Positions 2,790-49,648 of a stretch of DNA of 52,405 nt are shown piece by piece; the first letter of the stretch is position 1, and each line of letters starts with the position of its first letter. The notes beneath the pieces were generated by a model that did no database searches, was not told where the DNA came from, and saw only the letters and a program-made list of their open reading frames with translations. The DNA is from Syntrophomonadaceae bacterium. Lineage in GTDB: Bacteria > Bacillota > Dethiobacteria > DTU022. The stretch is taken from the NCBI GenBank assembly GCA_003550645.1, contig PUKV01000040.1, positions 1 to 52,405 on the forward strand, read 5' to 3'. Both the position numbers and the translations under genes were made by a program.

Positions 2790-4001
2790 CTAGTTGCCAG
2801 CCATGTCAGCTAATTCGAGGGATTCAAGGTAGTATGACATTACTTCTACTTCATCGAGATTATACTTTTCAGCGGCTATGGAAAATGCTTTATCCCAGTA
2901 GCCCTGTTCGTAAAGCAGCACCAGTTCGAGTATATCTCTGAAAGGACCGGATTCCCCCATGAGAGCACTTTTTATATCTTCCACCAGAGGAAGTTCCTGC
3001 AAAATAACTTCCATAGGTTGATCCAGGAACGTATCAAGAAGAGAGAATAAACCGGTTAAAAAAAGGTCGGCGCTTCTTTTTTCCATCCCGGTCACCGGCG
3101 CCATTAATTCACAAAACTTACCCCTGGAAACTGCTGTGACAATCAGCTCATCGGGTTTGTCATAACCAACATTGCGTAAAGCAACCAGGGAAGCCCACTT
3201 AGTCATTTCTTTCTGGCCCAGCAAAGCCATGGCCTGGCGTATGGAGTGGATTGGGAAACGAACCGGAAAAGCAATGGAATTAATAAAACGCAGCAGTTTA
3301 TATGAGAGAGCGGGATCCTGCTTGATTAAATATTCCACCTGGTCAAAGTCCATTTCCGGTTTGTTTATTTCCTGCAATAACCGCAAATTTTGCAGCTTAG
3401 TGCTTGGAATCTCTTTTCCTATAATAACTGCCGGCTCGCAGAAGAAAAAGCCCTGGAAAAAGTCATAACCATTTGTCATAGCATCCCCATATTCCTGTAC
3501 AGTTTCCACCTTTTCCGCTATCAACTTTTTCTTGCTGCCCCGAAAATAGTTAACTATCTTTTCCCTTTGCTCTGGATTTGTTTCCTGGTAATCCACTTTA
3601 ATAAAATCGACATAGTCGAGCAGATCAGCATACCTGGATTCATGATCGTAGTCATCCAGGACCAGCACATAACCTTTTTTATTAAGTTTTTTACAGGCTT
3701 TAGATACTTCAGCATCGGCTTCTGTTCCGCCGGTAATTTCTACAGCCACGTAATCCCTGGGGAGGAGAAAAGGAGTTTCATTGATTAACAACTGCCCGGT
3801 AAAATTAATAAAAGCTCTTTTCCTTCGGGTTAGTTTGTCCAGGCCCAGATCCAAAAAACTGTTGGCTATAACCTCTGAGGTAGCCAGGTTGCCGTTAAGT
3901 TCAGTATTGTAATTGTCCACACCCGATCGGTAAAGTAATTCATAAGCATAAACTTTCTGTCTCCTGTCAAAAATCGGCTGCCTGGCCACGTAAATATCCA
4001 C
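2790..4001 (-). CDS. EAL plus HDOD two-domain protein (COG3434, YuxH/PdeH-like c-di-GMP phosphodiesterase)
   Basis: 403 aa with GTG start preceded by AAGGAGG. N-terminus MDIYVARQPIFDRRQKVYAYELLYRSG (ELL variant of EAL). Also AFINFT, AVEITG, LDDYD, IKVD, IAEKVET and FFQGFFF. The C-terminal half (HSIRQAMALLGQKEMTKWASLVAL) is HDOD-like. Confidence 0.85.
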   Translation of the reverse strand: MDIYVARQPIFDRRQKVYAYELLYRSGVDNYNTELNGNLATSEVIANSFLDLGLDKLTRRKRAFINFTGQLLINETPFLLPRDYVAVEITGGTEADAEVSKACKKLNKKGYVLVLDDYDHESRYADLLDYVDFIKVDYQETNPEQREKIVNYFRGSKKKLIAEKVETVQEYGDAMTNGYDFFQGFFFCEPAVIIGKEIPSTKLQNLRLLQEINKPEMDFDQVEYLIKQDPALSYKLLRFINSIAFPVRFPIHSIRQAMALLGQKEMTKWASLVALRNVGYDKPDELIVTAVSRGKFCELMAPVTGMEKRSADLFLTGLFSLLDTFLDQPMEVILQELPLVEDIKSALMGESGPFRDILELVLLYEQGYWDKAFSIAAEKYNLDEVEVMSYYLESLELADMAGN

Positions 4002-4582: not shown

Positions 4583-5290
4583 TCAAGCCCTGGTATTAAG
4601 GGTATAGCCGCCCTGGGACAAAGCTTCAGAGGCAGCCAGCTGCAAATTACCGATACTCCAGTGCAGTGGCTTGCCTTTGTCTTCATTTATACTACCGGCT
4701 TCCTCTATTAAGCGTTCTGCTTCATGTTGAAGAGCTTCACCGGCCTCTTTTGACTCCACTACAAACCGGCAGTCCAACTTCTTTCCCCCTGGATAATAAA
4801 AGAAGCGAACCAGGACCAACCCAAAATGCTCAGTATCGATAAAAAGCTCCAACAATGGCTCTGACTCCAACTCTTCTGCCCGCTGCTGGTTACCCCGGGA
4901 ATAAAAACGGAGCAAAGCCGGTGTCTGCCCATCCTGCTTCACACCACCTGGCATGATGCCGAGTAAAAAGGATTCAGAGGATTCTCCGCCGATGGCGGCG
5001 GAATTAAGATCTTTCCCACCGGGAAAGCGGGCCATTATCCTGTAATGGGAGCGGCCCTCTTTCATCCCTTTATATGATAATAACAATGTTTCACCGGGAG
5101 TTACTTCTGCATTTAAAACAGCTGTAAAGGTGCCCCCATCCCAGCGCAAAACAGCTGCTTCCCCCTTTAAAGCGGTTACTTTTGCCACCAGGGATTCGGG
5201 TATGTCAGCCCGGGTTTGAACTGTTTTACCGGAGGTAAGGCGGTTTATGACCGGATCCCGGAAAAGGGCATTTAAGATACTGCTGTCCAC
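4583..5290 (-). CDS. Hypothetical protein with a FliK C-terminal (Flg_hook)-like segment
   Basis: 235-aa ORF packed tightly between neighbouring genes. LLELFIDTEHFGLVLVRFFYYPGGKKLDCRFVVESKEAGEALQHEAERL resembles the FliK C-terminal pattern seen in the fliK of this window (LTLHPPELGEVTVRVFSKQGQLSASILAESSLVREILESSIAEL). The functional call is tentative. Confidence 0.4.
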   Translation of the reverse strand: MDSSILNALFRDPVINRLTSGKTVQTRADIPESLVAKVTALKGEAAVLRWDGGTFTAVLNAEVTPGETLLLSYKGMKEGRSHYRIMARFPGGKDLNSAAIGGESSESFLLGIMPGGVKQDGQTPALLRFYSRGNQQRAEELESEPLLELFIDTEHFGLVLVRFFYYPGGKKLDCRFVVESKEAGEALQHEAERLIEEAGSINEDKGKPLHWSIGNLQLAASEALSQGGYTLNTRA

Positions 5291-7015: not shown

Positions 7016-8083
7016 CTAACGACAAAACATGCGAGCATAACGGTCAATCTCAACGGCCAACCTTTCTACAGAAGCCTGGACATCACACAACCCGTTTTTT
7101 ATCAATGCTGCAGGCATACTGGGTATCAAAGCTGTTGAAGGATCCTGGACTATCACAACCGTATCGTTTTTCTTCTTTTTCAGGCTGGCAGTTCCAGCTG
7201 CACCGTCTTTACCCATTCCGGTCATGATCACTACAACAATCTTTTGTTCACAACCGGCAAGCGATTCCAGCATCACATCTATTGAAGGCCTGACAAAGTT
7301 AACCCTCGGACCGGAATCCAGGTAGACGGCATTTTTTTTGGCTGCCAGGTGATACCCCCCCGGTGCAACCAGGGCCTGCCCTTTTAATAAGGGATCTCCG
7401 TTTGCCGCCTCCTTGACTTTTAATGGAGAAAGCAGATCCAGGCGCTGGGCGAAAGAAAGGGTGAAGCCCGGAGGCATATGCTGGGAGAGCATAACCGCCG
7501 CCGGAAAATCGGGAGGCAGACCTTTGAAAACAGCTTCCAGCGCTTTAGGGCCCCCGGTTGAAGCTCCTATGGCAATAATTAAATCGGCAGTTTCACGACG
7601 GCCTGCATATGAGGCTGCCTGCTGTCCAGCTTTATAGGCCGCCGGCTTTTCAGCTGAAATCAAGTTGACCCTGGCCATGGAGGCAGCAATGATTTTCTGG
7701 GGTAAAACATTTTTGAGCTCTTCCACGGAATCATCCCTGGACACAGAAGCGCTCATCGATGGTTTGGAAATAAAGTCTACCGCCCCGGCATCAAGAGCTT
7801 TTAGCGTGCTTTCACTGCCCACCCTGGTATGACTGCTCAGCATGATGACCGGGAGAGGGGTTTCAGCCACAATGTGCCGCAAAGTTTGAATACCATCCAT
7901 ACGCGGCATCTCAAGATCCATGGTTACGACATCAGGCCGGCATTCTTTTATTTTTTTTAAAGCATCAACTCCATCTTTAGCCGTTGCCGCAACTTCCAGA
8001 TCAGGATGATCACGGATAATATCGCCAATTATACGGCGCATAAAAGCCGAATCTTCAACCACCAGCACTCGCACTCTTTTCAA
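7016..8083 (-). CDS. cheB: Chemotaxis response regulator protein-glutamate methylesterase CheB
   Basis: 355 aa. N-terminal receiver domain (RVLVVEDSAFMRR...DVVTMDLEMPRMDG) and C-terminal methylesterase (IGASTGGPKAL, SQHMPPGFT, GMGKDGA). Its start overlaps the cheD stop by 4 nt. Confidence 0.92.
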   Translation of the reverse strand: MKRVRVLVVEDSAFMRRIIGDIIRDHPDLEVAATAKDGVDALKKIKECRPDVVTMDLEMPRMDGIQTLRHIVAETPLPVIMLSSHTRVGSESTLKALDAGAVDFISKPSMSASVSRDDSVEELKNVLPQKIIAASMARVNLISAEKPAAYKAGQQAASYAGRRETADLIIAIGASTGGPKALEAVFKGLPPDFPAAVMLSQHMPPGFTLSFAQRLDLLSPLKVKEAANGDPLLKGQALVAPGGYHLAAKKNAVYLDSGPRVNFVRPSIDVMLESLAGCEQKIVVVIMTGMGKDGAAGTASLKKKKNDTVVIVQDPSTALIPSMPAALIKNGLCDVQASVERLAVEIDRYARMFCR

Positions 8084-8568
8084 CTCTTCATTGCTCCTTT
8101 ACCTACTGTAGTTATAGTTACTTTACCCGTATCGACAAATAACCGCATCGTCCTGCCACAGTTTCCCCCAACATCTTCACTTTCGATTTTTACTTTTTCT
8201 TCTTTTAATATCGAGCGAACTGCTTCAATATTTTTTTGCCCTACATTGCCAGAATCGTTTTGAAAATTAAACAAGCTTGCGCCACCGGCAAGCTGGGCAA
8301 TGATATTATTTTTTCTGGCTCCTGCGGCAAGCATTTTTTCAATTAAATGAGGTACAGCCGTATCGGCAAACTTGGCCGGGTTGACAGTATTGGCGCTGGG
8401 GCGCGAAAACTTGCTGCTGTCGTTAAGCAAGATATGGGCAAGCCCGCCTACTTTTGAATTCTGATCATATAAAGCAATGCCAATACAGGATCCCAGGCCA
8501 AAAGTGACCAGCACTCCCTCATTTTTAGCTACAGCCATATCGGCAATTTTCACATGGACTGTCTCCAT
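8080..8568 (-). CDS. cheD: Chemoreceptor glutamine deamidase CheD
   Basis: 162 aa. GLGSCIGIALYD and GGLAHILL motifs. Confidence 0.9.
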   Translation of the reverse strand: METVHVKIADMAVAKNEGVLVTFGLGSCIGIALYDQNSKVGGLAHILLNDSSKFSRPSANTVNPAKFADTAVPHLIEKMLAAGARKNNIIAQLAGGASLFNFQNDSGNVGQKNIEAVRSILKEEKVKIESEDVGGNCGRTMRLFVDTGKVTITTVGKGAMKS

Positions 8569-8618
8569 TAAAAACCTCCGTGGTTAACAATGCGTCATCC
8601 AGTTCTGCTCGATAAATA

Positions 8619-8981
8619 CTACCCTTCCAGCTTGGCCAGAGCTTCGGCGATCCGGTCAGGTTGAAATGGCTTCACAACAAAATCTTTAGCCCCGGCATTG
8701 AGGGCTTCGATAACCAGGCTTTTTTGCCCCATGGCGCTGACAACTACTACTGTAGCTGTGGGATCAAAACTCATAATTTCCTTAATAGCCGTTATCCCAT
8801 CCATGTTAGGCATGGTAATGTCCATGGTTACGAGCGACGGTTTAAGCTCTTTATATAAATCGACCCCTTTTTGACCATCCTCGCCTTCACCCACTACCTC
8901 ATAGCCATTTTTCTCAAGCATGCTTTTTAAAGTCATTCTCATAAAAGCGGTATCATCGACTACCAGCACTGTTTTACTCAA
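8619..8981 (-). CDS. cheY: Chemotaxis response regulator CheY
   Basis: Receiver domain (VLVVDDTAFMR, LVTMDITMPNMDG, VVKPF). The ORF extends to 8999, but AAGGGAGGG lies 6 nt before a TTG at 8981, so I prefer 8981. The start is uncertain. Confidence 0.88.
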   Translation of the reverse strand: MSKTVLVVDDTAFMRMTLKSMLEKNGYEVVGEGEDGQKGVDLYKELKPSLVTMDITMPNMDGITAIKEIMSFDPTATVVVVSAMGQKSLVIEALNAGAKDFVVKPFQPDRIAEALAKLEG

Positions 8982-11133
8982 TGTAATCCCTCCCTTCACT
9001 TAAAAGGCCGGCAACATCGATTATAAGTGTTACGCTGCCGTCGCCAAGTATTGTCGCCCCGGCGATACCCTTCAATCCCCTGATCAGCTCACCAAGGGAT
9101 TTTATCATGATTTCCTGCTGGCCAATCAAGTCATCAACGATAAATCCAGCCCTGCGCCCGGCTGCTTCTACAATTACCACAGAATATTCATCCTCAGAAA
9201 GCCCGCCGTTTCCAAACCCCAGCAGGTCGCTCAGGGTATGTAGCGGAATCACTTCCCCTCTCAGGTTAACCACCGGATTACCGCGAATAGTTTTTATTTC
9301 CCGGCGATCCAGGTAAACGTTTTCCCGGATCACTTCTACCGGTATAGCATAAAGTTGATTAGATGATTTGACCAGCAGCGTGGTGATAATGGCCAGTGTA
9401 AGGGGCAAACGCATTTCAAAGCGGGTCATGACCCCAATTTCACTGGATACTTCCACCGTTCCATGCAGGGCTTCAATACTGTTTCTGACCGCATCCATGC
9501 CCACCCCCCGGCCGGAAACATCGGTCACCTGTTCCGATGTACTGAACCCGCTAAAAAAAATCAGGCCGACCAGGTCATCATCACTTAGCTGGCCAAATTC
9601 CTCTTCAGTGATTAGCCCCTTTTGGACGGCACTCCGCCCGACTTTTTTAGGATCGATCCCCCCGCCATCATCTTCTACAGTGATTACAACCTGGTTCCCT
9701 TCGTGACAGGCTTTCAAGTAGATTGCTCCTTCGGGCTTTTTGCCTTTCTTGACCCTGTCTTCAGGGGATTCAATTCCATGATCAAAAGCATTGCGCAGTA
9801 AATGAACCAGCGGATCCGATAGCCGGTTAATAATGGATCGGTCAAGCTCGGTTTCTTCCCCGCTGATATGAAGCTGCACTTTTTTCCCTTTCTCCCGGCA
9901 TAAATCGCGGACCATCCTGGGAAAACGCCCGAAAACCTGCTCTATCGGGACCATCCGCAACTCCATGGCTGTACCCTGTAAATTAGTAATGGATCTTTTC
10001 AGCTGATCGATGGTAGTGTCCAGTTCCTCATTAAAACCGTGCCCAATTTCAGAAATCCTGGTTCTTGCCACCACCATTTCGCCTACCAGGTTTACCAGGT
10101 CATCCAGTTTCTGCGTTTCCACCCTGACCATTTTATCGACCGCCCTGGTCACCTGCCGGCCGGGCTCTTCTTCCAAAGAAACCTGACTTTCAGGTTTTTC
10201 TTCAACCTGCACCTGTTCCCCGGTTTGCTTCTGCAATCCGTCGCTTCCTGCTTCACCATCTGGATTGTCAGAGATTTTTTCCACATCCAGGCAGGATGGA
10301 TTTCCTCTTTCCGGGCTTTCCTCAAGTTCGGCAGCCTTTTTCCCCGCAGTCTCTTCTTCCTGGCCAGCTGCTTCTCTGCCCGCTTCCTCCCAGGGCAATA
10401 TTATCACTTTATCTACATCAGTAATTTGCAGTACTTTATCTTGAACTTCTTCGGAGTTATTGTTTTGTGGCACAAAAAGAACCTGGAAATCAAAGTCGAA
10501 TTGCTCATCCTCCAGCTCCTGCTGAGTTGGAACCGAAGCTATAACTTCTCCGCATTCTTCCAGCGCTTTAAAAACCATGTAAATACGGACCGATTTCATT
10601 AAAACATCTTCTTTAAAAATTACATGGACCAGGCAGGGATGTTCCCCCCTTTCAAAGGCCTGACGCAGGATTTCTTGATCCATAACCCCGAGCTGGAATG
10701 AAGTCTTTGCCTGTTCTTCTTCATTTTGCTCCACTATAGCTTCTGTATCTTCACTATCGCGAGTTTTTTCCATTTCAGCCATTAATCTTTCCCATTTTCC
10801 CTGGTCTTCGGGACTGGACTCCTCCGGATGCTCCAGTGATTCCTGGAGCAGATCAACAGCTTCAAAAATCAGATCAATTACTGCAGGGCTGGGTTCCCGT
10901 TCGAAAGTCTTGAAGTCTTCCATGAAATTTTCCAGGCCGTGAGCTATGCTGGTTACATGCTGGTAACCCATTGTCCCGGCCATACCTTTCAAGCTGTGGA
11001 CTGCCCGGAATGCTTCTTTAAGCTGTTCACTATCCCGGGGGTTTTCTTCCAGTTTAAGCAAGCACTGGTTCAAAACCTGCATGTATTCCCCGGCTTCGGC
11101 TTGAAAAAGCTCTGCATATTGTCTGACATCCAT
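8974..11133 (-). CDS. cheA: Chemotaxis histidine kinase CheA, with a long acidic linker
   Basis: 719 aa. Hpt (AFRAVHSLKGMAGTMGY), dimerisation and HATPase domains (LVHLLRNAFDHGIE, DDGGGID, GRGVGMDAV), and a C-terminal CheW-like domain. Confidence 0.93.
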   Translation of the reverse strand: MDVRQYAELFQAEAGEYMQVLNQCLLKLEENPRDSEQLKEAFRAVHSLKGMAGTMGYQHVTSIAHGLENFMEDFKTFEREPSPAVIDLIFEAVDLLQESLEHPEESSPEDQGKWERLMAEMEKTRDSEDTEAIVEQNEEEQAKTSFQLGVMDQEILRQAFERGEHPCLVHVIFKEDVLMKSVRIYMVFKALEECGEVIASVPTQQELEDEQFDFDFQVLFVPQNNNSEEVQDKVLQITDVDKVIILPWEEAGREAAGQEEETAGKKAAELEESPERGNPSCLDVEKISDNPDGEAGSDGLQKQTGEQVQVEEKPESQVSLEEEPGRQVTRAVDKMVRVETQKLDDLVNLVGEMVVARTRISEIGHGFNEELDTTIDQLKRSITNLQGTAMELRMVPIEQVFGRFPRMVRDLCREKGKKVQLHISGEETELDRSIINRLSDPLVHLLRNAFDHGIESPEDRVKKGKKPEGAIYLKACHEGNQVVITVEDDGGGIDPKKVGRSAVQKGLITEEEFGQLSDDDLVGLIFFSGFSTSEQVTDVSGRGVGMDAVRNSIEALHGTVEVSSEIGVMTRFEMRLPLTLAIITTLLVKSSNQLYAIPVEVIRENVYLDRREIKTIRGNPVVNLRGEVIPLHTLSDLLGFGNGGLSEDEYSVVIVEAAGRRAGFIVDDLIGQQEIMIKSLGELIRGLKGIAGATILGDGSVTLIIDVAGLLSEGRDYIE

Positions 11134-11165
11134 ATCAATGACCTCCCTGCGGATAAACCGGTATT

Positions 11166-12923
11166 TTAAAGATCGTAGCTTTCTATTACATCTTCAAATT
11201 GTATTTCAGTTATTCTTATACCAAGCTGATCGTTGATCATCACCACCTCACCCCTGGCCAATAGCTTGTTGTTGGCCATCAATTCAACCGGATCATGCAC
11301 ATTGCAGTCCAGTTCGACTATTCCGCCTTTATCCAGTGCAAACAGTTTGCCCAGCGGCACCCTTGTAGTCCCCAGCACAACTTCAATATCCATCGGTATG
11401 TCTTTGACCAGTTCCAGCTTCTGCAGGTCTATTTCAGGCTCCGGGACTTTTTGCGCAGCAGTGGGCCTGGAAGCACTTTCTTGCTTACTTGCAGTAGTCT
11501 CAACGGTCGCTTCTTCCCGCCCGTCAACATATTCAACCTCCGGCAAAATTTCCTCCACACCGGGAGTTTGTTCCGGTCCTGGATCGGGGGCCGGGTCAGC
11601 TTGCCCGTGCAGGAGATCTCCGGCCATTATTTTTGCAAAATCTACCGGTATAACCTGGATCATAACGCTGTCAATAAGATCCTCCACCCGGATGGAGAAC
11701 TCGACATGGACTACCTCATCGTTTATGTCGAGCCCATAGATTTGTGAACGTTCATTGGATAAATCGATTTGCTCCAGCTTTGGAGGGGTTATATCTATGG
11801 GGCGTTGAAACAGTTCCGACATTGACGTCGCCATCGATCCCATCATCTGGTTCATTGCTTCCTGGACGGCGCTGATTTCAATCTCGTTTAAAGGACCTTC
11901 TTTTCCTTCCGGCGATTCCCCCATCATCAGGGCGGCAATTATCAGGGCATCCTGCTCCTTGATGATCAGAACATTGCTTCCTTCCAGGCCGGAGGTATAC
12001 TTCACTTCCACCATAAGACAGGGCAGGGGATACTCTTCCTGTATCTCCCGGACTTTACGTACATCCAGAGAAGGGGTAGTAATATCAACAACTTTGTTCA
12101 ATAATGTAGAGAGGGCTGTTGCTGAAGCACCCAGTGATATGTTACCCACTTCTCCGATGGTATCTTTCTCCAATTCACTTAGTTGTGCTTTATAAGCCGG
12201 GGTTTCTTCAGTATTGATTATAACCGTCTCTACATCATTACCCAGCTCGTCTTCATGCTCTTGATTGGAACCGGGTTCAGAAACCGCCTCTGGCCCGGAG
12301 TCACCGTCCTCCGGTACAGAGGCTGTTTCTGGTTCGCCTGTCAAAAGCTGGGCAGCCATTTTTTTGGCAAACTCAAGGGGTATTACCTGGACCATTATAC
12401 TGTCAATTATATCTTCCACTTTCATTGTAAACTGAACATGGACTACTTGATTGTTGGTATTAAAAGGCGGAACTTCAGGCTCTTCTTCAGAAAAATTTAT
12501 CAGTTCAATCCTGGGTGTGGTTATTTCTATAGTCCTTTGAAATAGTTCCGACATCGAGGTGGCCATTGAACCCATCATCTGGTTCATTGCCTCCTGGACA
12601 GCGCTCAATTCAATCTCGTTTAAAGGCCCTTCCTTGCCTTCCGGTGATTCCCCCATCATCAAGGCGGCAATTATCAGGGCATCCTGCTCCTTGATCAGGA
12701 GCATATTGCTTCCTTCCAGGCCCGATATATACTCCACTTCGACCAGGAGGCAGGGTATGGGATACTTTCGGCTTATCTCGCTGCTCTCAAGCACTGCAAG
12801 GCGTGGTGTAGTTATATCAACCATTTTATCCAGAATGGTTGATAAGGCCGTAGCAGAAGCACCCAGGGATATATTCCCTACTTCGGCTATGGTGTCTTTT
12901 TCCAGTAAACTGAGCTCTTCCAA
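11166..12923 (-). CDS. fliY: Flagellar motor switch phosphatase FliY with a duplicated CheC-like domain and a C-terminal FliN/SpoA domain
   Basis: 585 aa. Two CheC-like modules (aa 4-196 and 248-441), each with two D/S-x3-E-x2-N-x22-P motifs. The C-terminal SpoA domain is DIEVVLGTTRVPLGKLFALDKGGIVELD...ARGEVVMINDQLGIRITEI. Confidence 0.85.
   Translation of the reverse strand: MEELSLLEKDTIAEVGNISLGASATALSTILDKMVDITTPRLAVLESSEISRKYPIPCLLVEVEYISGLEGSNMLLIKEQDALIIAALMMGESPEGKEGPLNEIELSAVQEAMNQMMGSMATSMSELFQRTIEITTPRIELINFSEEEPEVPPFNTNNQVVHVQFTMKVEDIIDSIMVQVIPLEFAKKMAAQLLTGEPETASVPEDGDSGPEAVSEPGSNQEHEDELGNDVETVIINTEETPAYKAQLSELEKDTIGEVGNISLGASATALSTLLNKVVDITTPSLDVRKVREIQEEYPLPCLMVEVKYTSGLEGSNVLIIKEQDALIIAALMMGESPEGKEGPLNEIEISAVQEAMNQMMGSMATSMSELFQRPIDITPPKLEQIDLSNERSQIYGLDINDEVVHVEFSIRVEDLIDSVMIQVIPVDFAKIMAGDLLHGQADPAPDPGPEQTPGVEEILPEVEYVDGREEATVETTASKQESASRPTAAQKVPEPEIDLQKLELVKDIPMDIEVVLGTTRVPLGKLFALDKGGIVELDCNVHDPVELMANNKLLARGEVVMINDQLGIRITEIQFEDVIESYDL
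11601..12914 (-). repeat. In-frame tandem duplication inside fliY (two units, offset 732 nt / 244 aa)
   Basis: The units lie at about 12336-12914 and 11601-12182. Both contain the identical stretches IKEQDALIIAALMMGESPEGKEGPLNEIE and SAVQEAMNQMMGSMATSMSELFQR. Nucleotide similarity is visible by eye (for example 11820-12000 versus 12545-12730). Confidence 0.85.
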
Positions 12924-12934
12924 ATTACCCCTCC

Positions 12935-13288
12935 TCAGCGCAGGTTTTCTATTCTCTCTTTAGGATGAATGATATTTTTTAAGCGTACACCAAAGGTTTC
13001 GCCAACCGTTATCACTTCGCCCTCAGCAAACGACTTGCCGTTAACAACCAGCTCAACCGGGTCGTCAATCAATTTATCCAGTTCGATTACCGTGCCAACA
13101 GTAAGGTTTAAGAGTTGACCAATTGTTTTCCGGGCCTCGCCGAGGCGCACGGAAACTTCAAGTGGAAAATCCAGCACCAGCTTAAGTTTTAAGTCCATTT
13201 TCAGCTCTTCTTCACGACTTGAATCTTCGTTTAAAAGAGCATTCATTTCTTCTTCGGATAAGATGTTTCGGCTATCCATAGTTATCAC
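12935..13288 (-). CDS. fliN: Flagellar motor switch protein FliN (SpoA domain) with an N-terminal LSxxExxALL-type peptide
   Basis: 117 aa. LSEEEMNALLNE at the N-terminus; SpoA core LEVSVRLGEARKTIGQLLNLTVGTVIELDK...NGKSFAEGEVITVGETFGVRLKNI. The start overlaps the end of fliM. Confidence 0.8.
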   Translation of the reverse strand: MITMDSRNILSEEEMNALLNEDSSREEELKMDLKLKLVLDFPLEVSVRLGEARKTIGQLLNLTVGTVIELDKLIDDPVELVVNGKSFAEGEVITVGETFGVRLKNIIHPKERIENLR

Positions 13289-14291
13289 TCGCTTTGTCTT
13301 TTTCTTCAGTTACCCGTTCCACTATTTTTACGGCCAGCCGTTTACCCCTGGTCCCGGGTTGGACTTTAAAAAGTGGTTTATCTTCCACCAGCATTTCCAA
13401 ATGTTCTCCACTCTGCCTCTTCAGGGGCAGCACATCCCCTTCCTGGAGCTGTAAAAAATCATCAAGGGTAATTCTTGCCTTACCCAGCACCGCTTTTACT
13501 TCCGCTTCCGGGGCCTGCAGACATCTATCGATGTCCCCGGGTTTATTTTGGGAAGCCGACTGCTGGAACTGGTTGAACCAGTGCTGGGCAGTCAGGCTGG
13601 ATAAGACATGCTCAAGACCCATGAACGGAAAACAGAGATTAATAAAACCCTGGACATTCTGAACACTGGCGGAAAAAGTAACCAGGGCTACTGTTTCACT
13701 GGAAGCAATAACCTGGTTAAACTGGGGGTTGGTGTCCATGCTTTCAATCTGGGGGTCAAGCTGAACAATGCCTTTCCAGGCATAACTAAGGTTATCCAGG
13801 AACTTTTCATTGATCTGTCTCATAACAGATATTTCTATCTCGGTCAACTCCCTGATTTTCCCGGGCTGCCTGCCTTCACCCCCGAACAGGAGGTCGATGA
13901 TGGTAAATACAAAATTGGGGTTAGTTTCCAGCATAGCCACGCCCATGTCTTTCGACATGTTAAATATCGTCATCAGAGTGGGGACAGGAAGTGAAAAAAC
14001 GAACTCTTCATATGATACCTGGGCTACGGAAACCACCTGCAGTTTAACCGGGACTCTTAAAAAAGATGTCAAAAAGTTACCCATGATCCGGGCATAATTC
14101 TCATGGATAATCTGGAGGGTCCTGATCTGTTCCTTCGAAAATTTGGTCGGCCTCCGAAAATCATAAGAACTATATTCCTCGGTAACTTCATCGGTTTCTT
14201 CCTCTAAGTTACCACTGGATATGGCATTGATCAGGGAATCAATTTCAGATTGGGTCAATGCGTCTTTTGACAATTTTTCACCTCCCCACAA
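13272..14291 (-). CDS. fliM: Flagellar motor switch protein FliM
   Basis: 339 aa. N-terminal CheY-P binding motif LTQSEIDSLINAI, FRRPTKFSKEQIRTLQIIHENYAR, and a C-terminal SpoA-like region. Confidence 0.92.
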   Translation of the reverse strand: MWGGEKLSKDALTQSEIDSLINAISSGNLEEETDEVTEEYSSYDFRRPTKFSKEQIRTLQIIHENYARIMGNFLTSFLRVPVKLQVVSVAQVSYEEFVFSLPVPTLMTIFNMSKDMGVAMLETNPNFVFTIIDLLFGGEGRQPGKIRELTEIEISVMRQINEKFLDNLSYAWKGIVQLDPQIESMDTNPQFNQVIASSETVALVTFSASVQNVQGFINLCFPFMGLEHVLSSLTAQHWFNQFQQSASQNKPGDIDRCLQAPEAEVKAVLGKARITLDDFLQLQEGDVLPLKRQSGEHLEMLVEDKPLFKVQPGTRGKRLAVKIVERVTEEKDKASDNYG

Positions 14292-17229: not shown

Positions 17230-18015
17230 TTAGACCTCCCTTTCCAACTTGTTGCGCATTAATGTGAATAAATAACTGATGATCTGTTCCTGGATCTCTG
17301 GATCGATGTTCATAAAACTTACCCCGGCCCGGTACCTTTTCCAGCCCCCAATATTTAGGGGCGCCACCCTTACCACTTTTCCCTCCAGCAACAGTAATTG
17401 CTGTTTGCCTTTTTCACCGATATAGGTTGTAATCAGGAGCCGGTCATACCTGGCTAATGGTTCAAGGCTGACCATTCTCAACCCACCGCCCGACATATCC
17501 AGGGAAAAAGCCGGTTTAATGGGGGCCGCAGCTTCCAGCTCTTTCAGGTAATCCCTCATCCATATTGGATCTTCCCAGAAATCCTTGGACTGGAGCATGG
17601 TTTCCGGAAATATACCGTTAACCGGTTTTAATTCATCCCAGCGCCAGTAATGAAGATCCTGGTGGCAGGGGACCCGGACATGGCCGCGCCGCTGATGGCG
17701 ATGGGCAGTATGAGGGCGCTTAACCAGATACCTGGTTACGGATCCCTCTTTTTTGGCTCCAACAACCCGGGAAGTAAAAAAGTAAACGGCGTCCTCTTTA
17801 TTCAGGTAAAACTGCCAGCTGCTGTGGTCTGGCATCTCCAGGGTTTTTCCTCCTGAAAGAGGCTCACTGATCATCATCTCCTCTTTATCCAGGTCGAGAA
17901 CTTTAGCCGTGTAATATTCTTGTTCCGGCTCATGGTAAACCTGAAGCCGATCCTCCACCCCCAGCTTTTTAAACATGTCCGCTGCAGTCCTCCTCTTCCA
18001 GTAAAAACTAATCAT
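17230..18015 (-). CDS. PilZ-domain protein, YcgR/MotI-like candidate flagellar brake (c-di-GMP receptor)
   Basis: 261 aa. RRxxxR motif (QRRGHVRV) and DxSxxG motif (LDMSGGGLRM). It lies between flhG and fliA, as in many Firmicute flagellar loci. Confidence 0.8.
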   Translation of the reverse strand: MISFYWKRRTAADMFKKLGVEDRLQVYHEPEQEYYTAKVLDLDKEEMMISEPLSGGKTLEMPDHSSWQFYLNKEDAVYFFTSRVVGAKKEGSVTRYLVKRPHTAHRHQRRGHVRVPCHQDLHYWRWDELKPVNGIFPETMLQSKDFWEDPIWMRDYLKELEAAAPIKPAFSLDMSGGGLRMVSLEPLARYDRLLITTYIGEKGKQQLLLLEGKVVRVAPLNIGGWKRYRAGVSFMNIDPEIQEQIISYLFTLMRNKLEREV

Positions 18016-25587: not shown

Positions 25588-25995
25588 TTAACCCTCTTTT
25601 CCGGAGCCGGAATCATTTTCATTGTCTTCCTCACCAACAAGCTCGGTGATTCGAACCCCAAAACGATCATTAATTACTACTATCTCACCATGCGCAAAAG
25701 GCATTTCATTAACCAGGATAATTACCTTCTCATCAGCCACCCGGTTCAACTTGAGCACAGAGCCTTCTTCAAGGTTGATCAAATCACGTACTTTTAGCGT
25801 TACTTTTCCCAATTCTGCGCTAATATTAAGGTTCACCCCGTGGAACTCAGGGGCTATACCCCTTCTAAGCGATACCGGTCCGCTGTCTGACAGCGGTTGA
25901 AAAACCACCTTCTTAATCACCGGTTGACCTTGATCATCAAAATGATCATTCCCAGAAAAAGGTTTTTGCTCTTCCCAATAGCTGCTTGACATCAA
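25588..25995 (-). CDS. Second FliN-like SpoA-domain protein, located between fliL and fliO
   Basis: 135 aa. SpoA core LNISAELGKVTLKVRDLINLEEGSVLKLNRVADEKVIILVNEMPFAHGEIVVINDRFGVRITELV. Confidence 0.75.
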   Translation of the reverse strand: MMSSSYWEEQKPFSGNDHFDDQGQPVIKKVVFQPLSDSGPVSLRRGIAPEFHGVNLNISAELGKVTLKVRDLINLEEGSVLKLNRVADEKVIILVNEMPFAHGEIVVINDRFGVRITELVGEEDNENDSGSGKEG

Positions 25996-39393: not shown

Positions 39394-39819
39394 TTAGCAC
39401 TTTTTCTTTATATATATTTCTTCCCGGCCCTCGCTTGCCCCGAAGGGGTGATAAGCTTTTAAAGTCCTCCTTCCGGCAGACATTATAGTTATAGCCTCTC
39501 CTGTATTGTCTTTTTCTTTTACCAGCAACTTGCAATTATGAGTCCTGTGTTTGCAAGCCAATTCTAATAACTGCAGCAGTTGCCTTGATTGCTCCGCGGA
39601 AACCTCTTCCCGGGAAGGAAAACAACTTTTTAACTCCTCTAAAAGCTGCTCCTGTTCGTATCCAATCTTTTTTAGTTCGTCCAAGTCATTAGATTCAATT
39701 GCAGCTCGTTCTTCCCTGGAACCCTTGATCAAACAGTTCAATATGACCAGCACCTGGCAATAATTATCGGGCCTGTCCTGCAGGCGTTGTTCGTCAGACC
39801 TGTTCCTGTTTTGAACCAT
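39394..39819 (-). CDS. Hypothetical helical protein, FlgN-like (possible flagellar chaperone)
   Basis: 141-aa ORF directly after fliW. EERAAIESNDLDELKKIGYEQEQLLEELK resembles the FlgN-family N-terminal pattern. The functional call is weak. Confidence 0.35.
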   Translation of the reverse strand: MVQNRNRSDEQRLQDRPDNYCQVLVILNCLIKGSREERAAIESNDLDELKKIGYEQEQLLEELKSCFPSREEVSAEQSRQLLQLLELACKHRTHNCKLLVKEKDNTGEAITIMSAGRRTLKAYHPFGASEGREEIYIKKKC

Positions 39820-46636: not shown

Positions 46637-47758
46637 TCAAGAAGAAGGATTTCGTAACAGCCGTTCCGGAAGCTCATGTTCTTCATAAACCCGCTCCACT
46701 GTGACGTTTAGGGTAGTAAGTAAATCAATTTCATAGCACTCAACCGGAGAAAAACTTTCTTTTTCTGCTATGACCCTGACCCGGGGTCTGGTTGGATAAC
46801 CGCTGGTATTATGGACTACCACCCCGACGTAACCATTATCAAGGCTAATTATAGTACCAACCGGGTACGCGGCGATATGATGATAAAAAGTTTGCATGAC
46901 CTGCATATCATACCCCTCGCACTCTTCCTCCATGATTTCCATGGCCTGGTGGGGCTTAAAACCCTGCCGGTAAGGGCGATCTGAAACCAGGGCGTCATAA
47001 ACATCGGCAACTGCACATATTTTGGGATAGCGTTCAATTTCATCTCCATGCAATCCCTGCGGATAACCTTTACCGTTTATCCTTTCGTGGTGCTTATAAA
47101 TAATTGCTAAAGATGGCCCATTAAAAAAATGCCTCCCTTTTACAAGTTCAAGACCGTAAAGTGGATGTTTTTCAATCTCCAACCGCTCTTCTTCCAGCAA
47201 ACGGCCAGGTTTATTTAATATGCTTAAAGGAACTACAACCTTACCTAAATCATGCAAAAAAGCGCCTATCCCCATATGTTTTAGCTCTGTTCTATTCATT
47301 CCCAGGGAAATCCCGGTCATAATCGATAAAACAGCCACATTTACTGAATGCGAAAAAGTGTAGTCATCAGTGTACCTTATATCGGATAAATTGACCGTTA
47401 AATTCTCATTACCTAGCAGCTGGTTAATAATATCATCAAGTATATCTGTCAATTCCTGCCTGGCCGTCACCAGTTTTGACAGCTTCGGGCGTTGATATTC
47501 TTTTAAAGCGGTCAGGGTAGAACGGACCATGTTAATAGCCTTTTCCCTAGTTTCTTCGAGAATGACATCTTCCACCATAACATCGGGAATTAAATCATCG
47601 TGAATGTAAACCGCCCTGACATTGAGTTTTTTCAATTTCTGTATATAATCCATCTCCAGCTGAACCCCGACATTCAAAAGGGGGGCACCGCTGTTGCTGG
47701 CTACTTTTTTCGCAACTTCCATCCCCGGACGCAAAGCCCAGACAGGTACCAACCGCAT
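46637..47758 (-). CDS. HD-GYP domain c-di-GMP phosphodiesterase
   Basis: 373 aa. HSVNVA, GAFLHDLGK, HHERINGKGYPQGL (HD-GYP signature) and DVYDALVSDRPYR. Confidence 0.88.
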   Translation of the reverse strand: MRLVPVWALRPGMEVAKKVASNSGAPLLNVGVQLEMDYIQKLKKLNVRAVYIHDDLIPDVMVEDVILEETREKAINMVRSTLTALKEYQRPKLSKLVTARQELTDILDDIINQLLGNENLTVNLSDIRYTDDYTFSHSVNVAVLSIMTGISLGMNRTELKHMGIGAFLHDLGKVVVPLSILNKPGRLLEEERLEIEKHPLYGLELVKGRHFFNGPSLAIIYKHHERINGKGYPQGLHGDEIERYPKICAVADVYDALVSDRPYRQGFKPHQAMEIMEEECEGYDMQVMQTFYHHIAAYPVGTIISLDNGYVGVVVHNTSGYPTRPRVRVIAEKESFSPVECYEIDLLTTLNVTVERVYEEHELPERLLRNPSS

Positions 47759-48115: not shown

Positions 48116-49648
48116 TTAAATTTGTTCTTCTTCAAGCTTAATGGGGCCCAGGCCCAATAACCAAAATCCATTTTTTGCCCTACCATTTTCAGGAACCAGT
48201 CTTCCATAACCAAACCGGCTCCCTAATAACCATTTTCCGGTAAAACGTTCACCGGAGGCCGGGTTACAGGTGCCGTAACCATGGCGCAGTCCTCTCCACC
48301 ACCGCCCCCGGTATGTACTTCCATCCGGCCAGGTCCTGACACCCCAACCCTGAAATTTGTCAAATGCAAATTCGCCCTCGTATGTTCCTTTACCTGCAAA
48401 TATACAGTATCCGTAGCCATGCATCATCCCGGCATTCCAGCTGCCGCGCCAGCTAGAACCACCCTCCTTTTCCAGGCAACCTTCGCCATGATATAAATTG
48501 TTTTTAAAATAACCTTCATAATAATCTCCGTTTGGGTAACGATACAGGCCAAACCCTTCGATCAAGTCTTCCCGCCAATCTCCCCTGTACTCAGAACCAT
48601 CTTTCCAGACCATAACACCTTGCCCGTGCTTTTTACCATTTTTAAAATCCCCTCTATATTTAGCCCCATTCTTATAATTAACTGCACCCTGCCCATTAGG
48701 TCGGGCATTTTCCAGTTCGCCGCTGTAAAATGAGCCATCTGGAAAAAAGTAAGTGCCACCCTCCTGTGCCGCACCTTCTATAAAAGTTCCAACAAATCGA
48801 GATCCATCCCGATAATGAATAGTTCCTTTTCCATGAGGCCGGTTCTTTTTACAATCCCCCTTATATTTTGAACCGTCAGGATATAAACATTTTCCGCTTC
48901 CACTGTTTCTTCCATGTTCAAAAAAGCCTCTGAATTGTGTGCCATCGGCAAAGAAAACAGTACCTTTGCCGTGAGGCAAACCGTCTTTCAACCTGCCTTT
49001 GTACAAGGCATTTTCTGGAAAATAAAAATGACCTTTATCTGCAAACTGTCCTTGCTTAAAATAACCTGCATATTTAGATCCATTAGCGAAATAATAAATT
49101 CCACGACCGTCCAGGCGGTTACCCCGCCACTGCCCTTCGTACCTGCGGCCATCGGGCCATATTTGAGTCCCGGTTCCATCCCGCAGGTCCTCAAACCACT
49201 GACCTTTATAACTTTTTCCGTTAGGCCAGATCATTTTACCTTCCCCATGTCGGTAAGCATTTCTCCACTCACCAATATATTTTCTTCCATCAGGCCAGGT
49301 AAAAGTACCGTGCCCTTCATATAAGCCGTTTACGAATTCGCCTTCGTATTTTTCACCACCAGGCCAGTAATAAGTTCCCAGGCCATGCATCTGGTCATTT
49401 TTCCATTCTCCAACATATTTCCGCCAATCGGCAAACAGGTACGTACCCCGGCCGTGCATCTTGTCCTCTTTCCAGTGCCCCTCGTACTTATCCCCATTGG
49501 ACCATACAAATGTTCCTTCACCGTGGAACAGGCCGTTTTTCCACTCGCCACTGTACCTGCTGCCATCCGGCCAGATAACGGTACCGCGGCCATGCGGCTT
49601 TTTATTTAATAATTCTCCCTTATATTCTCCATTTCCGGCCAGTTTCAT
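48116..49648 (-). CDS. MORN-repeat protein (21 uninterrupted 23-aa repeats)
   Basis: 510 aa. A Y-x-G-x-(W/F)-x-x-x-x-x-x-G-x-G pattern repeats every 23 residues from YKGELLNKKPHGRGTVIWPDGSR to FTGKWLLGSRFGYGRLVPENGRA. I see no signal peptide or TM segment. Confidence 0.85.
   Translation of the reverse strand: MKLAGNGEYKGELLNKKPHGRGTVIWPDGSRYSGEWKNGLFHGEGTFVWSNGDKYEGHWKEDKMHGRGTYLFADWRKYVGEWKNDQMHGLGTYYWPGGEKYEGEFVNGLYEGHGTFTWPDGRKYIGEWRNAYRHGEGKMIWPNGKSYKGQWFEDLRDGTGTQIWPDGRRYEGQWRGNRLDGRGIYYFANGSKYAGYFKQGQFADKGHFYFPENALYKGRLKDGLPHGKGTVFFADGTQFRGFFEHGRNSGSGKCLYPDGSKYKGDCKKNRPHGKGTIHYRDGSRFVGTFIEGAAQEGGTYFFPDGSFYSGELENARPNGQGAVNYKNGAKYRGDFKNGKKHGQGVMVWKDGSEYRGDWREDLIEGFGLYRYPNGDYYEGYFKNNLYHGEGCLEKEGGSSWRGSWNAGMMHGYGYCIFAGKGTYEGEFAFDKFQGWGVRTWPDGSTYRGRWWRGLRHGYGTCNPASGERFTGKWLLGSRFGYGRLVPENGRAKNGFWLLGLGPIKLEEEQI

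What the first reader, a model, noticed from the sequence alone, without database searches (positions are those of the whole stretch)
11601..12914. Recent in-frame tandem duplication gives FliY two complete CheC-like phosphatase domains (four active-site motifs)
- FliY here is 585 aa. As I recall, characterised FliY proteins are roughly 340-380 aa.
- Residues 4-196 and 248-441 are near-copies, offset by 244 aa (732 nt).
- Identical runs of 29 and 24 residues occur in both (IKEQDALIIAALMMGESPEGKEGPLNEIE and SAVQEAMNQMMGSMATSMSELFQR). Nucleotide similarity is obvious, so the duplication is evolutionarily young.
- Each unit retains both D/S-x3-E-x2-N-x22-P CheY-P phosphatase motifs: DTIAEVGN...P40 and SAVQEAMN...P137 in unit 1, with equivalents in unit 2. 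The protein therefore carries four putative active sites.
- The linker between units is acidic and low complexity.
- The N-terminal CheY-binding LSxxEIDALL peptide usual in FliY is missing. A similar peptide sits instead on the separate FliN encoded just upstream.
- No stand-alone cheC or cheX gene is present in the window.
Basis: partly seen in the sequence, partly recalled or inferred. Interest (0 to 1): 0.62.

Follow-up and report, generated by a model that had tools for sequence, protein, structure and literature searches.

The report
Old two-domain FliY motor phosphatase
The flagellar switch protein FliY here does carry two complete CheC-type phosphatase domains, but the doubling is an old, conserved trait of a whole clade of soda/salt-lake Firmicutes that also lacks the separate cheC gene next to cheD, not a recent event or an assembly error.

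Summary
fliY (11166-12923, minus strand, 585 aa) holds two full CheC-type domains offset by 732 nt. All four D/S-x3-E-x2-N-x22-P motifs are intact, and a FliN-type C-terminal domain follows.

The interpretation "recent duplication" is not supported.
- About 40 orthologues at 55-83% identity share the architecture.
- Unit 1 groups with unit 1 and unit 2 with unit 2 of relatives; the window's own units never pair.
- Synonymous sites between the units are saturated, except in a central tract of about 150 nt (dS 0.46). That tract looks like a later intragenic gene conversion on top of strongly conserved residues.
- Both units are under strong purifying selection (dN/dS 0.06-0.09).
- An independent assembly tiles the region at even depth, so this is not an artefact.

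Context:
- The CheY-binding LSxxEIDALL peptide sits on a separate 117-aa FliN.
- The stand-alone cheC that lies beside cheD in 9 of 9 outgroup loci is missing in 9 of 9 clade loci.
- Multi-CheC FliY proteins (2-3 units) arose repeatedly in Bacillota, including the Bacillus cereus group, and I found no paper describing them.

Most likely function: a C-ring-tethered CheY-P phosphatase with doubled catalytic modules. This is a new variant of a known kind, of moderate interest.

The parts
11166..12923 (-). fliY coding sequence, 585 aa: CheC unit 1, linker, CheC unit 2, linker, FliN-type C-terminal domain
   Evidence: ORF. Pfam CheC x4 plus FliMN_C. NCBIfam FliY equivalog NF005995 at 568.8 bits against a cut-off of 218. 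RBS GGAGGGG before the TTG start.
12324..12923 (-). CheC-type unit 1 (aa 1-200)
   Evidence: Unit HMM match 1-200. AF2 pLDDT about 85-90 with a full CheC alpha/beta fold. dN/dS 0.089 against the closest orthologue.
12192..12323 (-). Acidic disordered inter-unit linker (aa 201-244; the disordered stretch runs about 197-247)
   Evidence: pLDDT about 28. Length and sequence vary among orthologues. dN/dS 0.43.
11592..12191 (-). CheC-type unit 2 (aa 245-444)
   Evidence: Unit HMM match 245-444. Best PDB sequence match 4hyn, T. maritima FliY, E 1e-37 over aa 251-433. For the whole model, Foldseek's top hit is 4hyn with TM 0.88 and rmsd 2.0 A (the output does not say which unit aligned). dN/dS 0.060.
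11430..11591 (-). Second disordered linker (aa 445-498)
   Evidence: pLDDT below 50 for 441-510. Poorly conserved. dN/dS 0.43.
11166..11429 (-). FliN-type C-terminal domain (aa 499-585) plus stop codon
   Evidence: Pfam FliMN_C 505-574. PDB 1o6a, 1yab, 8umd and 5xrw. dN/dS 0.036.
12804..12896 (-). Active-site motif 1 of unit 1: D10-x3-E14-x2-N17-x22-P40
   Evidence: Read from the sequence. E14, N17 and P40 are invariant in 25 orthologues.
12513..12605 (-). Active-site motif 2 of unit 1: S107-x3-E111-x2-N114-x22-P137
   Evidence: N114 is nearly invariant; it is T in 2 of the 40 clade unit-1 sequences.
12072..12164 (-). Active-site motif 1 of unit 2: D254-x3-E258-x2-N261-x22-P284
11781..11873 (-). 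Active-site motif 2 of unit 2: S351-x3-E355-x2-N358-x22-P381
12588..12743 (-). Central low-dS tract in unit 1 (unit codons 61-112); probable gene-conversion partner of 11856-12011
   Evidence: Synonymous differences 10/45 here against 45/85 in the flanks, Fisher p=0.0008. Paralogue dS 0.46 against 2.3 or saturated in the flanks, and against 1.1 for the same tract in relatives. Longest identical run 33 nt.
11856..12011 (-). Central low-dS tract in unit 2 (aa 305-356)
   Evidence: Same as above.
12935..13288 (-). fliN-1 (117 aa): short FliN with an N-terminal CheY-P/FlhG-binding-type peptide. It holds the module that canonical FliY carries at its own N-terminus.
   Evidence: Pfam FliMN_C. LSEEEMNALL at aa 10-19. 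Such a gene precedes all 11 multi-unit fliY genes and none of 73 canonical single-unit fliY genes.
13232..13261 (-). LSEEEMNALL peptide of FliN-1 (aa 10-19)
   Evidence: Compare LSQ[DE]EIDALL on canonical FliY in 73 of 73 loci.
13272..14291 (-). fliM (339 aa) with its own LTQSEIDSLI peptide
   Evidence: Pfam FliM plus FliMN_C; N-terminus read.
8569..8618 (-). 50-nt cheY-cheD spacer: the position where relatives outside the clade carry a stand-alone cheC
   Evidence: cheY 8619-8999 and cheD 8080-8568. cheC lies directly upstream of cheD in 9 of 9 non-clade loci and in 0 of 9 clade loci.
8080..8568 (-). cheD (162 aa), retained without an adjacent cheC
   Evidence: Pfam CheD. NCBIfam's top match is a CheD model at 182.7 bits, below its 251-bit cut-off.

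Best explanation
fliY in this window encodes a flagellar C-ring protein. Its CheC-like CheY-P phosphatase domain was duplicated in frame and in tandem in the common ancestor of a whole clade of haloalkaliphilic Bacillota. MAGs of this clade are labelled Dethiobacteria or 'Syntrophomonadaceae' and come from soda or salt lakes.

Shown:
- Both copies are complete CheC folds, joined by a disordered acidic linker of about 50 residues.
- Both keep both catalytic motifs, so there are four sites.
- Both evolve under purifying selection about as strong as that on the FliN-type anchoring domain.
- In the window's own lineage the middle 150 nt or so of the two copies were probably homogenised later by intragenic gene conversion. 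That is why they look young.

Inferred mechanism:
- The C-terminal FliN domain anchors the protein in the C-ring beside FliM and the short FliN.
- CheY-P is captured by the LSxxE(I/M)(D/N)ALL peptides on FliM and on the separate 117-aa FliN.
- The two flexibly tethered CheC modules dephosphorylate it on the spot. This gives twice the catalytic sites per rotor subunit of an ordinary FliY.
- The doubling sits on the same stem branch as the loss of the stand-alone cheC next to cheD. The extra unit may therefore compensate for lost soluble CheC phosphatase capacity.
For: Architecture and repeat.

Fold:
- AF2 gives two well-folded CheC domains plus FliN_C with disordered linkers.
- Foldseek top hit is T. 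maritima FliY 4hyn, TM 0.88, rmsd 2.0 A. The sequence hit to 4hyn is 1e-37.
- The FliY equivalog is passed.

Age:
- About 40 two-unit orthologues at 55-83% identity.
- Bootstrap: Q_u1+P0002_u1 100%, Q_u2+P0002_u2 96%, u1{P1-4} 76%, u2{P1-4} 95%, Q_u1+Q_u2 0%.
- The clade's u1+u2 are monophyletic against single-unit relatives at 96%.
- Nucleotide quartets in the flanks, window vs L001: 66 orthology, 8 concerted, 7 cross.
- Paralogue dS is 1.4 overall and saturated in the flanks.

Selection: dN/dS 0.089 and 0.060 for the units, 0.036 for FliN_C, 0.43 for the linkers. The motifs are invariant or nearly so.

Origin of the extra unit: both units score about 250 bits on a FliY-unit HMM and about 40 bits on a stand-alone-CheC HMM, and both are equidistant from single-unit FliY.

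Conversion tract.

Not an artefact: independent Logan contigs lie at even 54-57x depth, and one contig (11934-12692) spans the inter-unit junction.

Context:
- FliN carries the peptide.
- cheC is absent in 9 of 9 clade loci and present in 9 of 9 others.

Background: FliY is the main CheY-P phosphatase and CheC has about 6% of its activity (PMC3513319).
Against: - No biochemical data exist for any multi-unit FliY. Catalytic competence of all four sites is inferred only from motif conservation.
- Strict monophyly of all 28 unit-1 or all 28 unit-2 sequences is weakly supported (1% and 17%). The deepest part of the clade could therefore hide extra conversions or more than one event.
- The link between the duplication and cheC loss is a single co-occurrence on one branch. 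Other lineages with 2-3-unit FliY keep cheC (L007-L010, L086).
- cheC could still lie elsewhere in these genomes, because only contig-level data were available (one search is weak negative evidence).
- The conversion tract is supported by dS and Fisher tests, but a run-length permutation test was not significant (p about 0.1).
Confidence: 0.78

Rival explanations
1. Recent, lineage-specific tandem duplication: the second unit arose shortly before the sampled genome.
For: Stretches of 29 and 24 identical residues, a 33-nt identical run, and 88% nucleotide identity in the central 156 nt.
Against: - The same two-unit architecture is found in about 40 orthologues down to 55% identity.
- Units group by position, not by genome.
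- Synonymous sites in the flanks are saturated.
- The identical residues are nearly invariant across all orthologues in both units.
Confidence: 0.02
2. Assembly artefact: a repeat expanded or mis-joined by the assembler.
For: Tandem repeats are a classic source of mis-assembly. Logan contigs break at the most similar blocks.
Against: - The copies are only about 72% identical at nucleotide level, with a longest identical run of 33 nt.
- The independent assembly tiles the region at uniform 54-57x, with a contig crossing the junction and no joints in run X1.
- Dozens of independent assemblies give the same 546-597-aa protein.
Confidence: 0.01
3. Domain capture: the extra unit is the lost stand-alone cheC, fused into fliY.
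For: cheC is missing exactly in the clade that has the extra unit.
Against: - Both units are FliY-type, at about 250 bits on a FliY-unit HMM against about 40 bits on a stand-alone-CheC HMM.
- They are each other's closest relatives and equidistant from single-unit FliY.
Confidence: 0.02
4. Subfunctionalised units: one CheC unit is no longer primarily a phosphatase. It would act as the CheD-binding partner (taking over CheC's adaptation role) or as a structural FliM-like spacer in the C-ring.
For: - cheD is kept without an adjacent cheC in 9 of 9 clade loci.
- In B. subtilis the key role of CheC is CheD binding, not catalysis (PMC3513319).
- Unit-specific conserved differences exist in aa 41-56 and 131-160.
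- The CheC fold equals the FliM middle-domain fold.
Against: - Both units keep all catalytic residues and evolve at equal rates.
- Neither unit shows any gain in similarity to stand-alone CheC: 43-46 bits against 53 bits for single-unit FliY.
- From memory, unverified here: T. maritima FliY was reported not to be stimulated by CheD.
Confidence: 0.13
5. The duplication is much older than the clade, and whole-unit concerted evolution keeps the copies similar.
For: - There is a signal of conversion in the central tract.
- Units within one protein are slightly more similar than units across proteins (0.639 against 0.623).
- Strict U1/U2 monophyly is weakly supported.
Against: - Flanks show clear orthology patterns, 66 against 8.
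- Single-unit relatives with the same split fliN-fliY layout form the sister group.
- The excess within-protein similarity is tiny.
Confidence: 0.06

Closest known systems
Canonical FliY of Bacillus subtilis / Thermotoga maritima (PDB 4hyn middle domain)
   Same: - CheC-like middle-domain fold (TM 0.88, 42% identity).
- Two D/S-x3-E-x2-N-x22-P sites per domain.
- FliN-type C-terminal domain.
- Gene placed beside fliM in the flagellar/che operon.
- Passes NCBIfam FliY equivalog NF005995.
   Different: - Two CheC domains instead of one: 585 aa against ORFs of 366-430 codons.
- No N-terminal LSQxEIDALL peptide, which 73 of 73 canonical loci have.
- A separate short FliN carries that peptide.
Single-unit FliY of sister Dethiobacteria lineages (e.g. 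P0083, locus L084)
   Same: Same split layout, fliM then fliN (117 aa, with peptide) then fliY without peptide then cheA then cheY. About 50-55% identity. It is the sister group to both units.
   Different: One CheC unit (335 aa), and a stand-alone cheC (199 aa) between cheY and cheD.
Bacillus cereus-group 'flagellar motor switch protein' (Bc1629, 'CheC/FliN'; NCBIfam NF005275 / PRK06782, 516 positions)
   Same: Two CheC units plus FliN_C and no EIDAL peptide. The window protein aligns end to end with the model, aa 4-574 on positions 7-515.
   Different: - The score is below the family cut-off, 453 against 681 bits.
- Units are only 35-42% identical to the window's, but about 50% identical to each other. 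This points to an independent, older duplication.
- The gene neighbourhood differs: motAB, cheY, cheA, then fliY.
Three-unit FliY proteins (760-863 aa; P0042-P0053, locus L007)
   Same: Multi-CheC FliY with FliN_C, no N-terminal peptide, and an upstream peptide-bearing FliN.
   Different: - Three units.
- The first unit is highly divergent (24-34% identity), and its second site has usually lost the Asn (G/S).
- cheC is retained next to cheD in the one three-unit locus examined, L007.
Stand-alone CheC (class I, CheD partner; PDB 1xkr, 2f9z) and Halobacterium salinarum CheC3
   Same: Same fold and motifs. CheC3 is reported to consist of two CheC domains and to bind CheD (PMC3579733).
   Different: These are soluble, lack a FliN domain and are encoded next to cheD. 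The window's units score about 40 bits on a stand-alone-CheC HMM.

Membership tests
FliY (C-ring member of the CheC/FliY/CheX phosphatase family) | CheC-like alpha/beta middle-domain fold | tested here: met
   Pfam CheC x4. 4hyn at E 1e-37. Foldseek TM 0.88, rmsd 2.0 A. Present twice.
FliY (C-ring member of the CheC/FliY/CheX phosphatase family) | Two D/S-x3-E-x2-N-x22-P active-site motifs per CheC domain | tested here: met
   All four motifs are intact and conserved across 25 aligned orthologues.
FliY (C-ring member of the CheC/FliY/CheX phosphatase family) | C-terminal FliN-type (SpoA) domain for C-ring assembly | tested here: met
   Pfam FliMN_C 505-574. PDB FliN and FliY C-domains. dN/dS 0.036.
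FliY (C-ring member of the CheC/FliY/CheX phosphatase family) | N-terminal CheY-P-binding peptide LSQxEIDALL on the same polypeptide | tested here: not met
   Absent. Only 12 open codons lie upstream. The peptide is on the separate FliN-1. 73 of 73 canonical FliY proteins have it.
FliY (C-ring member of the CheC/FliY/CheX phosphatase family) | Curated sequence model (NCBIfam NF005995 equivalog) above cut-off | tested here: met
   568.8 bits against a cut-off of 218, in two stretches.
FliY (C-ring member of the CheC/FliY/CheX phosphatase family) | CheY-P phosphatase activity and localisation in the flagellar switch | not testable with these tools
   Inferred from motifs, the FliN domain and the operon position next to fliM.
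Bacillus cereus-type two-unit switch protein (NCBIfam NF005275 / PRK06782) | Score above the curated cut-off of the 516-position model | tested here: not met
   453.1 bits against a cut-off of 681, though aligned end to end. The units are closer within each lineage than between lineages. Same architecture, independent origin.
Stand-alone CheC (class I, CheD partner) | Protein of about 200 aa without a FliN domain, encoded next to cheD, with CheC-specific sequence | tested here: not met
   Units score about 40 bits on an HMM built from 9 stand-alone CheC sequences, against about 250 bits on the FliY-unit HMM. There is no cheC beside cheD in the window.
Stand-alone CheC (class I, CheD partner) | Binding to and activation by CheD | not testable with these tools
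   No multimer prediction or assay was available.

The most novel reading that the evidence does not exclude
In this clade the motor-bound FliY has absorbed the role of the lost soluble CheC. One of its two CheC units would bind CheD in a CheY-P-dependent way. The CheC/CheD adaptation feedback would then run through the flagellar C-ring itself rather than through a cytoplasmic protein. More broadly, copy number of the CheC module in FliY (1, 2 or 3 units, gained repeatedly in Bacillota) would be an undescribed evolutionary dial for CheY-P lifetime at the motor.
Probability: 0.12. Interest if true: 0.65.

Novelty: new variant of a known kind. Interest (0 to 1): 0.4.

Why it matters
FliY is the main CheY-P phosphatase of Bacillus-type chemotaxis, and it acts at the motor. 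A conserved form with two full catalytic domains (four sites) has three further features. The CheY-docking peptide has moved to a separate FliN. No stand-alone cheC lies beside cheD. Similar forms arose independently in several lineages, including the well-studied Bacillus cereus group.

Together these show that the stoichiometry of phosphatase modules in the C-ring is evolutionarily adjustable. This gives a natural series of 1-, 2- and 3-unit proteins for testing two questions: how signal-termination rate at the motor is tuned, and whether CheD can be regulated without soluble CheC.

It does not overturn any concept. It is an architectural variant of a known protein, and sequence databases already hold it. 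I found no description of it in the literature I could search.

Tried and rejected
- Tandem Repeats Finder did not report the 732-nt repeat, because its longest period is 500. The repeat finder did report it.
- The first bootstrap with Biopython NJ timed out and was replaced by a numpy NJ.
- Strict monophyly of all unit-1 or all unit-2 sequences across 28 non-redundant orthologues is weak, 1% and 17%. I therefore rely on the well-supported shallower nodes and on nucleotide quartets.
- A run-length permutation test for the conversion tract was not significant (p about 0.1). All-site quartet counts are confounded by unit-specific amino-acid changes, so they were redone on synonymous-only sites, where counts are small.
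- The comparison with the nearest single-unit protein is confounded by truncated fragments of two-unit proteins. It was not used to count independent duplication events.
- Fusion of cheC into fliY was considered and rejected.
- The literature was searched for any description of two-CheC FliY and none was found. Muff & Ordal 2008 and Sircar et al. 2013 are not held, so statements about T. maritima FliY and CheD rest on memory.
- The CheC homologue search found no clade-type CheC and no hit on the clade's large contigs. That search is word-seeded and lists only 120 hits, so this is weak negative evidence.
Full report
**1.

The ORF 11166-12923 on the minus strand encodes 585 aa from a TTG start. 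A GGAGGGG ribosome-binding site lies 5 nt upstream, directly after the fliN stop codon. Only 12 open codons precede the start, and they hold no CheY-binding motif.

The repeat finder reports two direct-repeat blocks with exactly 732-nt spacing: 300 nt at 81% identity and 101 nt at 74%.

Pfam finds four CheC stretches and a C-terminal FliMN_C domain. The NCBIfam FliY equivalog is passed at 568.8 bits against a cut-off of 218. All four D/S-x3-E-x2-N-x22-P motifs are intact.

An AlphaFold2 model built on 25 orthologues shows:
- two separately folded CheC-type domains (pLDDT about 85-90);
- a folded FliN domain;
- two disordered linkers, 197-245 and 441-510.

The best solved relative is the T. maritima FliY middle domain, 4hyn. 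The sequence match is E 1e-37, and Foldseek gives TM 0.88 and rmsd 2.0 A.

**2. It is not an assembly artefact**

The two copies are only about 72% identical at nucleotide level over 200 codons, and the longest identical run is 33 nt.

A public run from a salt-lake metagenome (X1) holds 94% of the sampled words of the region. Its independent Logan contigs tile 10900-13300 at an even depth of 54-57x. One contig (11934-12692) crosses the junction between the units, and there are no joints in that run.

About 40 proteins of 546-597 aa from other assemblies have the same layout.

**3. The duplication is old, not recent**

The closest homologues, at 83% down to 55% identity, all have two units in the same positions.

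In bootstrapped neighbour-joining trees of the units:
- the window's unit 1 groups with unit 1 of P0002 in 100% of replicates, and unit 2 with unit 2 in 96%;
- the unit-1 and unit-2 groups of the four closest lineages get 76% and 95%;
- the window's two units never pair, 0 of 500;
- all unit 1 plus unit 2 sequences of the clade are monophyletic against single-unit relatives in 96% of replicates.

This points to one duplication on the clade's stem. Strict separation of all 28 unit-1 from all 28 unit-2 sequences is poorly supported, so the deepest nodes are not resolved.

At nucleotide level, quartet patterns in the flanks of the unit favour orthology for window vs L001: 66 orthology, 8 concerted, 7 cross. 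dS between the window's two units is 1.44 overall, and 2.3 or saturated in the flanks. dS between the window and its closest relative is already 0.55-1.35.

Both units are equally conserved, with mean pairwise identity 0.66 and 0.67. Both are equally distant from single-unit FliY, at 0.545 and 0.543.

dN/dS against the closest orthologue is 0.089 for unit 1, 0.060 for unit 2, 0.036 for FliN_C and 0.43 for the linkers. Both copies are therefore maintained by selection.

**4. Why it looked young**

The central block (unit codons about 61-130) is almost invariant at protein level in both units of all orthologues. The amino-acid identity there therefore reflects constraint.

In addition, codons 61-112 of the window show unusually few synonymous differences between the units:
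- 10 of 45 there against 45 of 85 in the flanks, Fisher p=0.0008;
- dS 0.46 there, against 1.1 for the same tract in L001 and L004, and lower than the orthologue dS between window and L001;
- synonymous-only quartets in that tract give 0-1 orthology against 4-9 concerted patterns when the window is compared with L002-L006.

I read this as a later intragenic gene conversion of about 150 nt in the window's lineage. The support is moderate, because counts are small and a run-length permutation test gave p about 0.1.

**5. Origin of the extra unit**

Both units score about 250 bits on an HMM of canonical FliY units, and only about 40 bits on an HMM of nine stand-alone CheC proteins. The second unit is therefore a copy of FliY's own domain, not a captured cheC.

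**6. Context**

The gene order on the minus strand is:

flhB-flhA-flhF-flhG-pilZ(ycgR-like)-sigD-DUF6115-flgF/G-fliM-fliN1-fliY-cheA-cheY-cheD-cheB-cheR

Two features accompany the double FliY.

(a) The docking peptide sits on FliN.
- In 73 of 73 loci with a canonical single-unit FliY, the LSQxEIDALL peptide is on FliY and no small fliN precedes it.
- In 11 of 11 loci with a multi-unit FliY, including the window, FliY lacks the peptide, and a small upstream FliN carries LS(Q/E)xE(I/M)(D/N/E)AL(L/I).
- Over all proteins sampled, 101 of 104 multi-unit proteins lack the peptide. The exceptions are P0060, P0109 and P0129.
- The single-unit sister lineage (L084) already has the split fliN-fliY layout, so the split predates the duplication.
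- The FliN-1 C-domain and the FliY C-domain are about equally similar to canonical FliY C-domains, at 41-49% and 39-46%. This fits an ancestral fliY gene duplication followed by reciprocal module loss. That step is inference.

(b) cheC is missing.
- A stand-alone cheC lies immediately upstream of cheD in 9 of 9 non-clade loci that reach cheD: L007-L013, L084 and L086.
- It is absent in 9 of 9 clade loci: the window, L001-L004, L006, L088, L089 and L091.
- In the window only 50 nt separate cheY from cheD.
- A homologue search with the sister lineage's CheC found 13 hits at 65-99% identity and then nothing above 46%. No hit lies on a contig with the length of any clade fliY contig. This is weak negative evidence.
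- No CheC- or CheX-type ORF other than fliY exists in the 52-kb window.

**7. Wider distribution**

A scan of 1.84 billion representative proteins with unit 1 gave 348 hits at E<=1e-30. Among the top 150 representatives, about 33 have two or more units and 6 have three.

Unit-to-unit identity within a protein ranges from about 24% to about 80%, and one further representative shows a distance of 0.19 between its units. In several lineages the units of one protein are each other's nearest relatives (P0051, P0057, P0061, P0063, P0066, P0121 and the B. cereus group). The duplication has therefore happened repeatedly and at different times.

The Bacillus cereus-group protein (Bc1629, annotated 'CheC/FliN', 545-554 aa) has two units. 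NCBIfam holds a 516-position model for that type, NF005275/PRK06782. The window protein aligns with it end to end but below the cut-off, 453 against 681 bits.

Three-unit proteins have a divergent first unit whose second site has usually lost the Asn.

I found no paper describing FliY with two CheC domains. A 2026 paper states that little is known about B. cereus chemotaxis proteins (PMC12848376). H. salinarum CheC3 is reported to have two CheC domains and to bind CheD (PMC3579733).

**8. How it most likely works**

Shown:
- two intact CheC folds with four conserved motifs;
- a FliN anchoring domain;
- flexible linkers;
- purifying selection on all folded parts;
- a docking-type peptide on FliM and on FliN-1.

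Inferred: the FliN domain places the protein in the C-ring with FliM and the short FliN. H. pylori FliN-FliY heterodimers (5xrw) are sequence-matched. CheY-P docks on the FliM and FliN-1 peptides. The two tethered CheC modules hydrolyse it at its site of action, doubling the active sites per subunit.

In B. subtilis, FliY is the main phosphatase. CheC has about 6% of FliY's activity and acts mainly through CheD (PMC3513319). The clade keeps cheD but has no cheC beside it. Either CheD works alone here, or a FliY unit has taken over CheD binding. The sequence data give no positive sign of the latter, so I rate it at about 0.12.

**9. Verdict**

The architecture, the four sites, the missing peptide and the absence of cheC are right. 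The young age is wrong.

This is a new variant of a known kind: a conserved, selected, recurrent multi-CheC FliY architecture. It exists in databases, including the B. cereus group, but has not been characterised as far as I could find. Interest is moderate, 0.4.

Noticed in passing
window 25588-25995 (-): A second small FliN-type gene (135 aa, FliMN_C) lies between fliL and fliO. It has no EIDAL-type peptide and is only 34% identical to FliN-1. The window therefore encodes four FliN-domain proteins: FliM, FliN-1, FliN-2 and FliY.
   Followed up: partly
window 8569-8618 (cheY-cheD spacer); loci L001-L004, L006, L088, L089, L091 against L007-L013, L084, L086: The stand-alone cheC found directly upstream of cheD in 9 of 9 outgroup loci is absent in 9 of 9 loci of the two-unit clade, while cheD is kept.
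   Followed up: yes
window 13232-13261 (-) and loci L001-L091: The LSxxE(I/M)(D/N)ALL docking peptide sits on a separate short FliN in every multi-unit fliY locus (11 of 11), and on FliY itself in every canonical single-unit locus (73 of 73). Three of 104 multi-unit proteins (P0060, P0109, P0129) keep it.
   Followed up: yes
window 11856-12011 and 12588-12743: The central tract of the repeat has a paralogue dS of 0.46, against saturated flanks. This is a probable intragenic gene conversion that happened after the split from the closest relative.
   Followed up: yes
L007 5962-8580; proteins P0042-P0053: Three-unit FliY proteins (760-863 aa). The first unit is highly divergent and has usually lost the Asn of its second active-site motif.
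   Followed up: partly
proteins P0121, P0066, P0061, P0051, P0063, P0057; locus L086: Other lineages carry younger, independent FliY duplications. Units are 72-80% identical (P0051, P0057, P0061, P0063, P0066), and P0121 has a distance of 0.19 between its units. L086 comes from the same metagenome as L002 and still keeps cheC.
   Followed up: partly
L085 5001-6638 (Bacillus cereus group): The B. cereus-group FliY (545-554 aa; Bc1629, annotated 'CheC/FliN') is a two-unit protein in a different neighbourhood (motAB-cheY-cheA-fliY). NCBIfam model NF005275/PRK06782 covers this type.
   Followed up: partly
window 8974-8999: As listed, the cheA and cheY ORFs overlap by 26 nt. The orthologous loci show similar overlaps.
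   Followed up: no
window 2790-4001, 17230-18015, 46637-47758: Genes of c-di-GMP-related type flank the flagellar cluster: an EAL(partial)-HDOD protein, a YcgR-like PilZ protein next to flhG, and an HD (HD_5) domain protein.
   Followed up: no
window 48116-49648 (-): A 510-aa protein made of 11 MORN repeats, next to tatC.
   Followed up: no
window 4583-5290 (-) and 39394-39819 (-): Two ORFs (235 and 141 aa) have no Pfam match. A hit-less gene of 234-237 aa occupies the same position after the AstE/AspA-like gene in L001-L003, L088 and L089.
   Followed up: no
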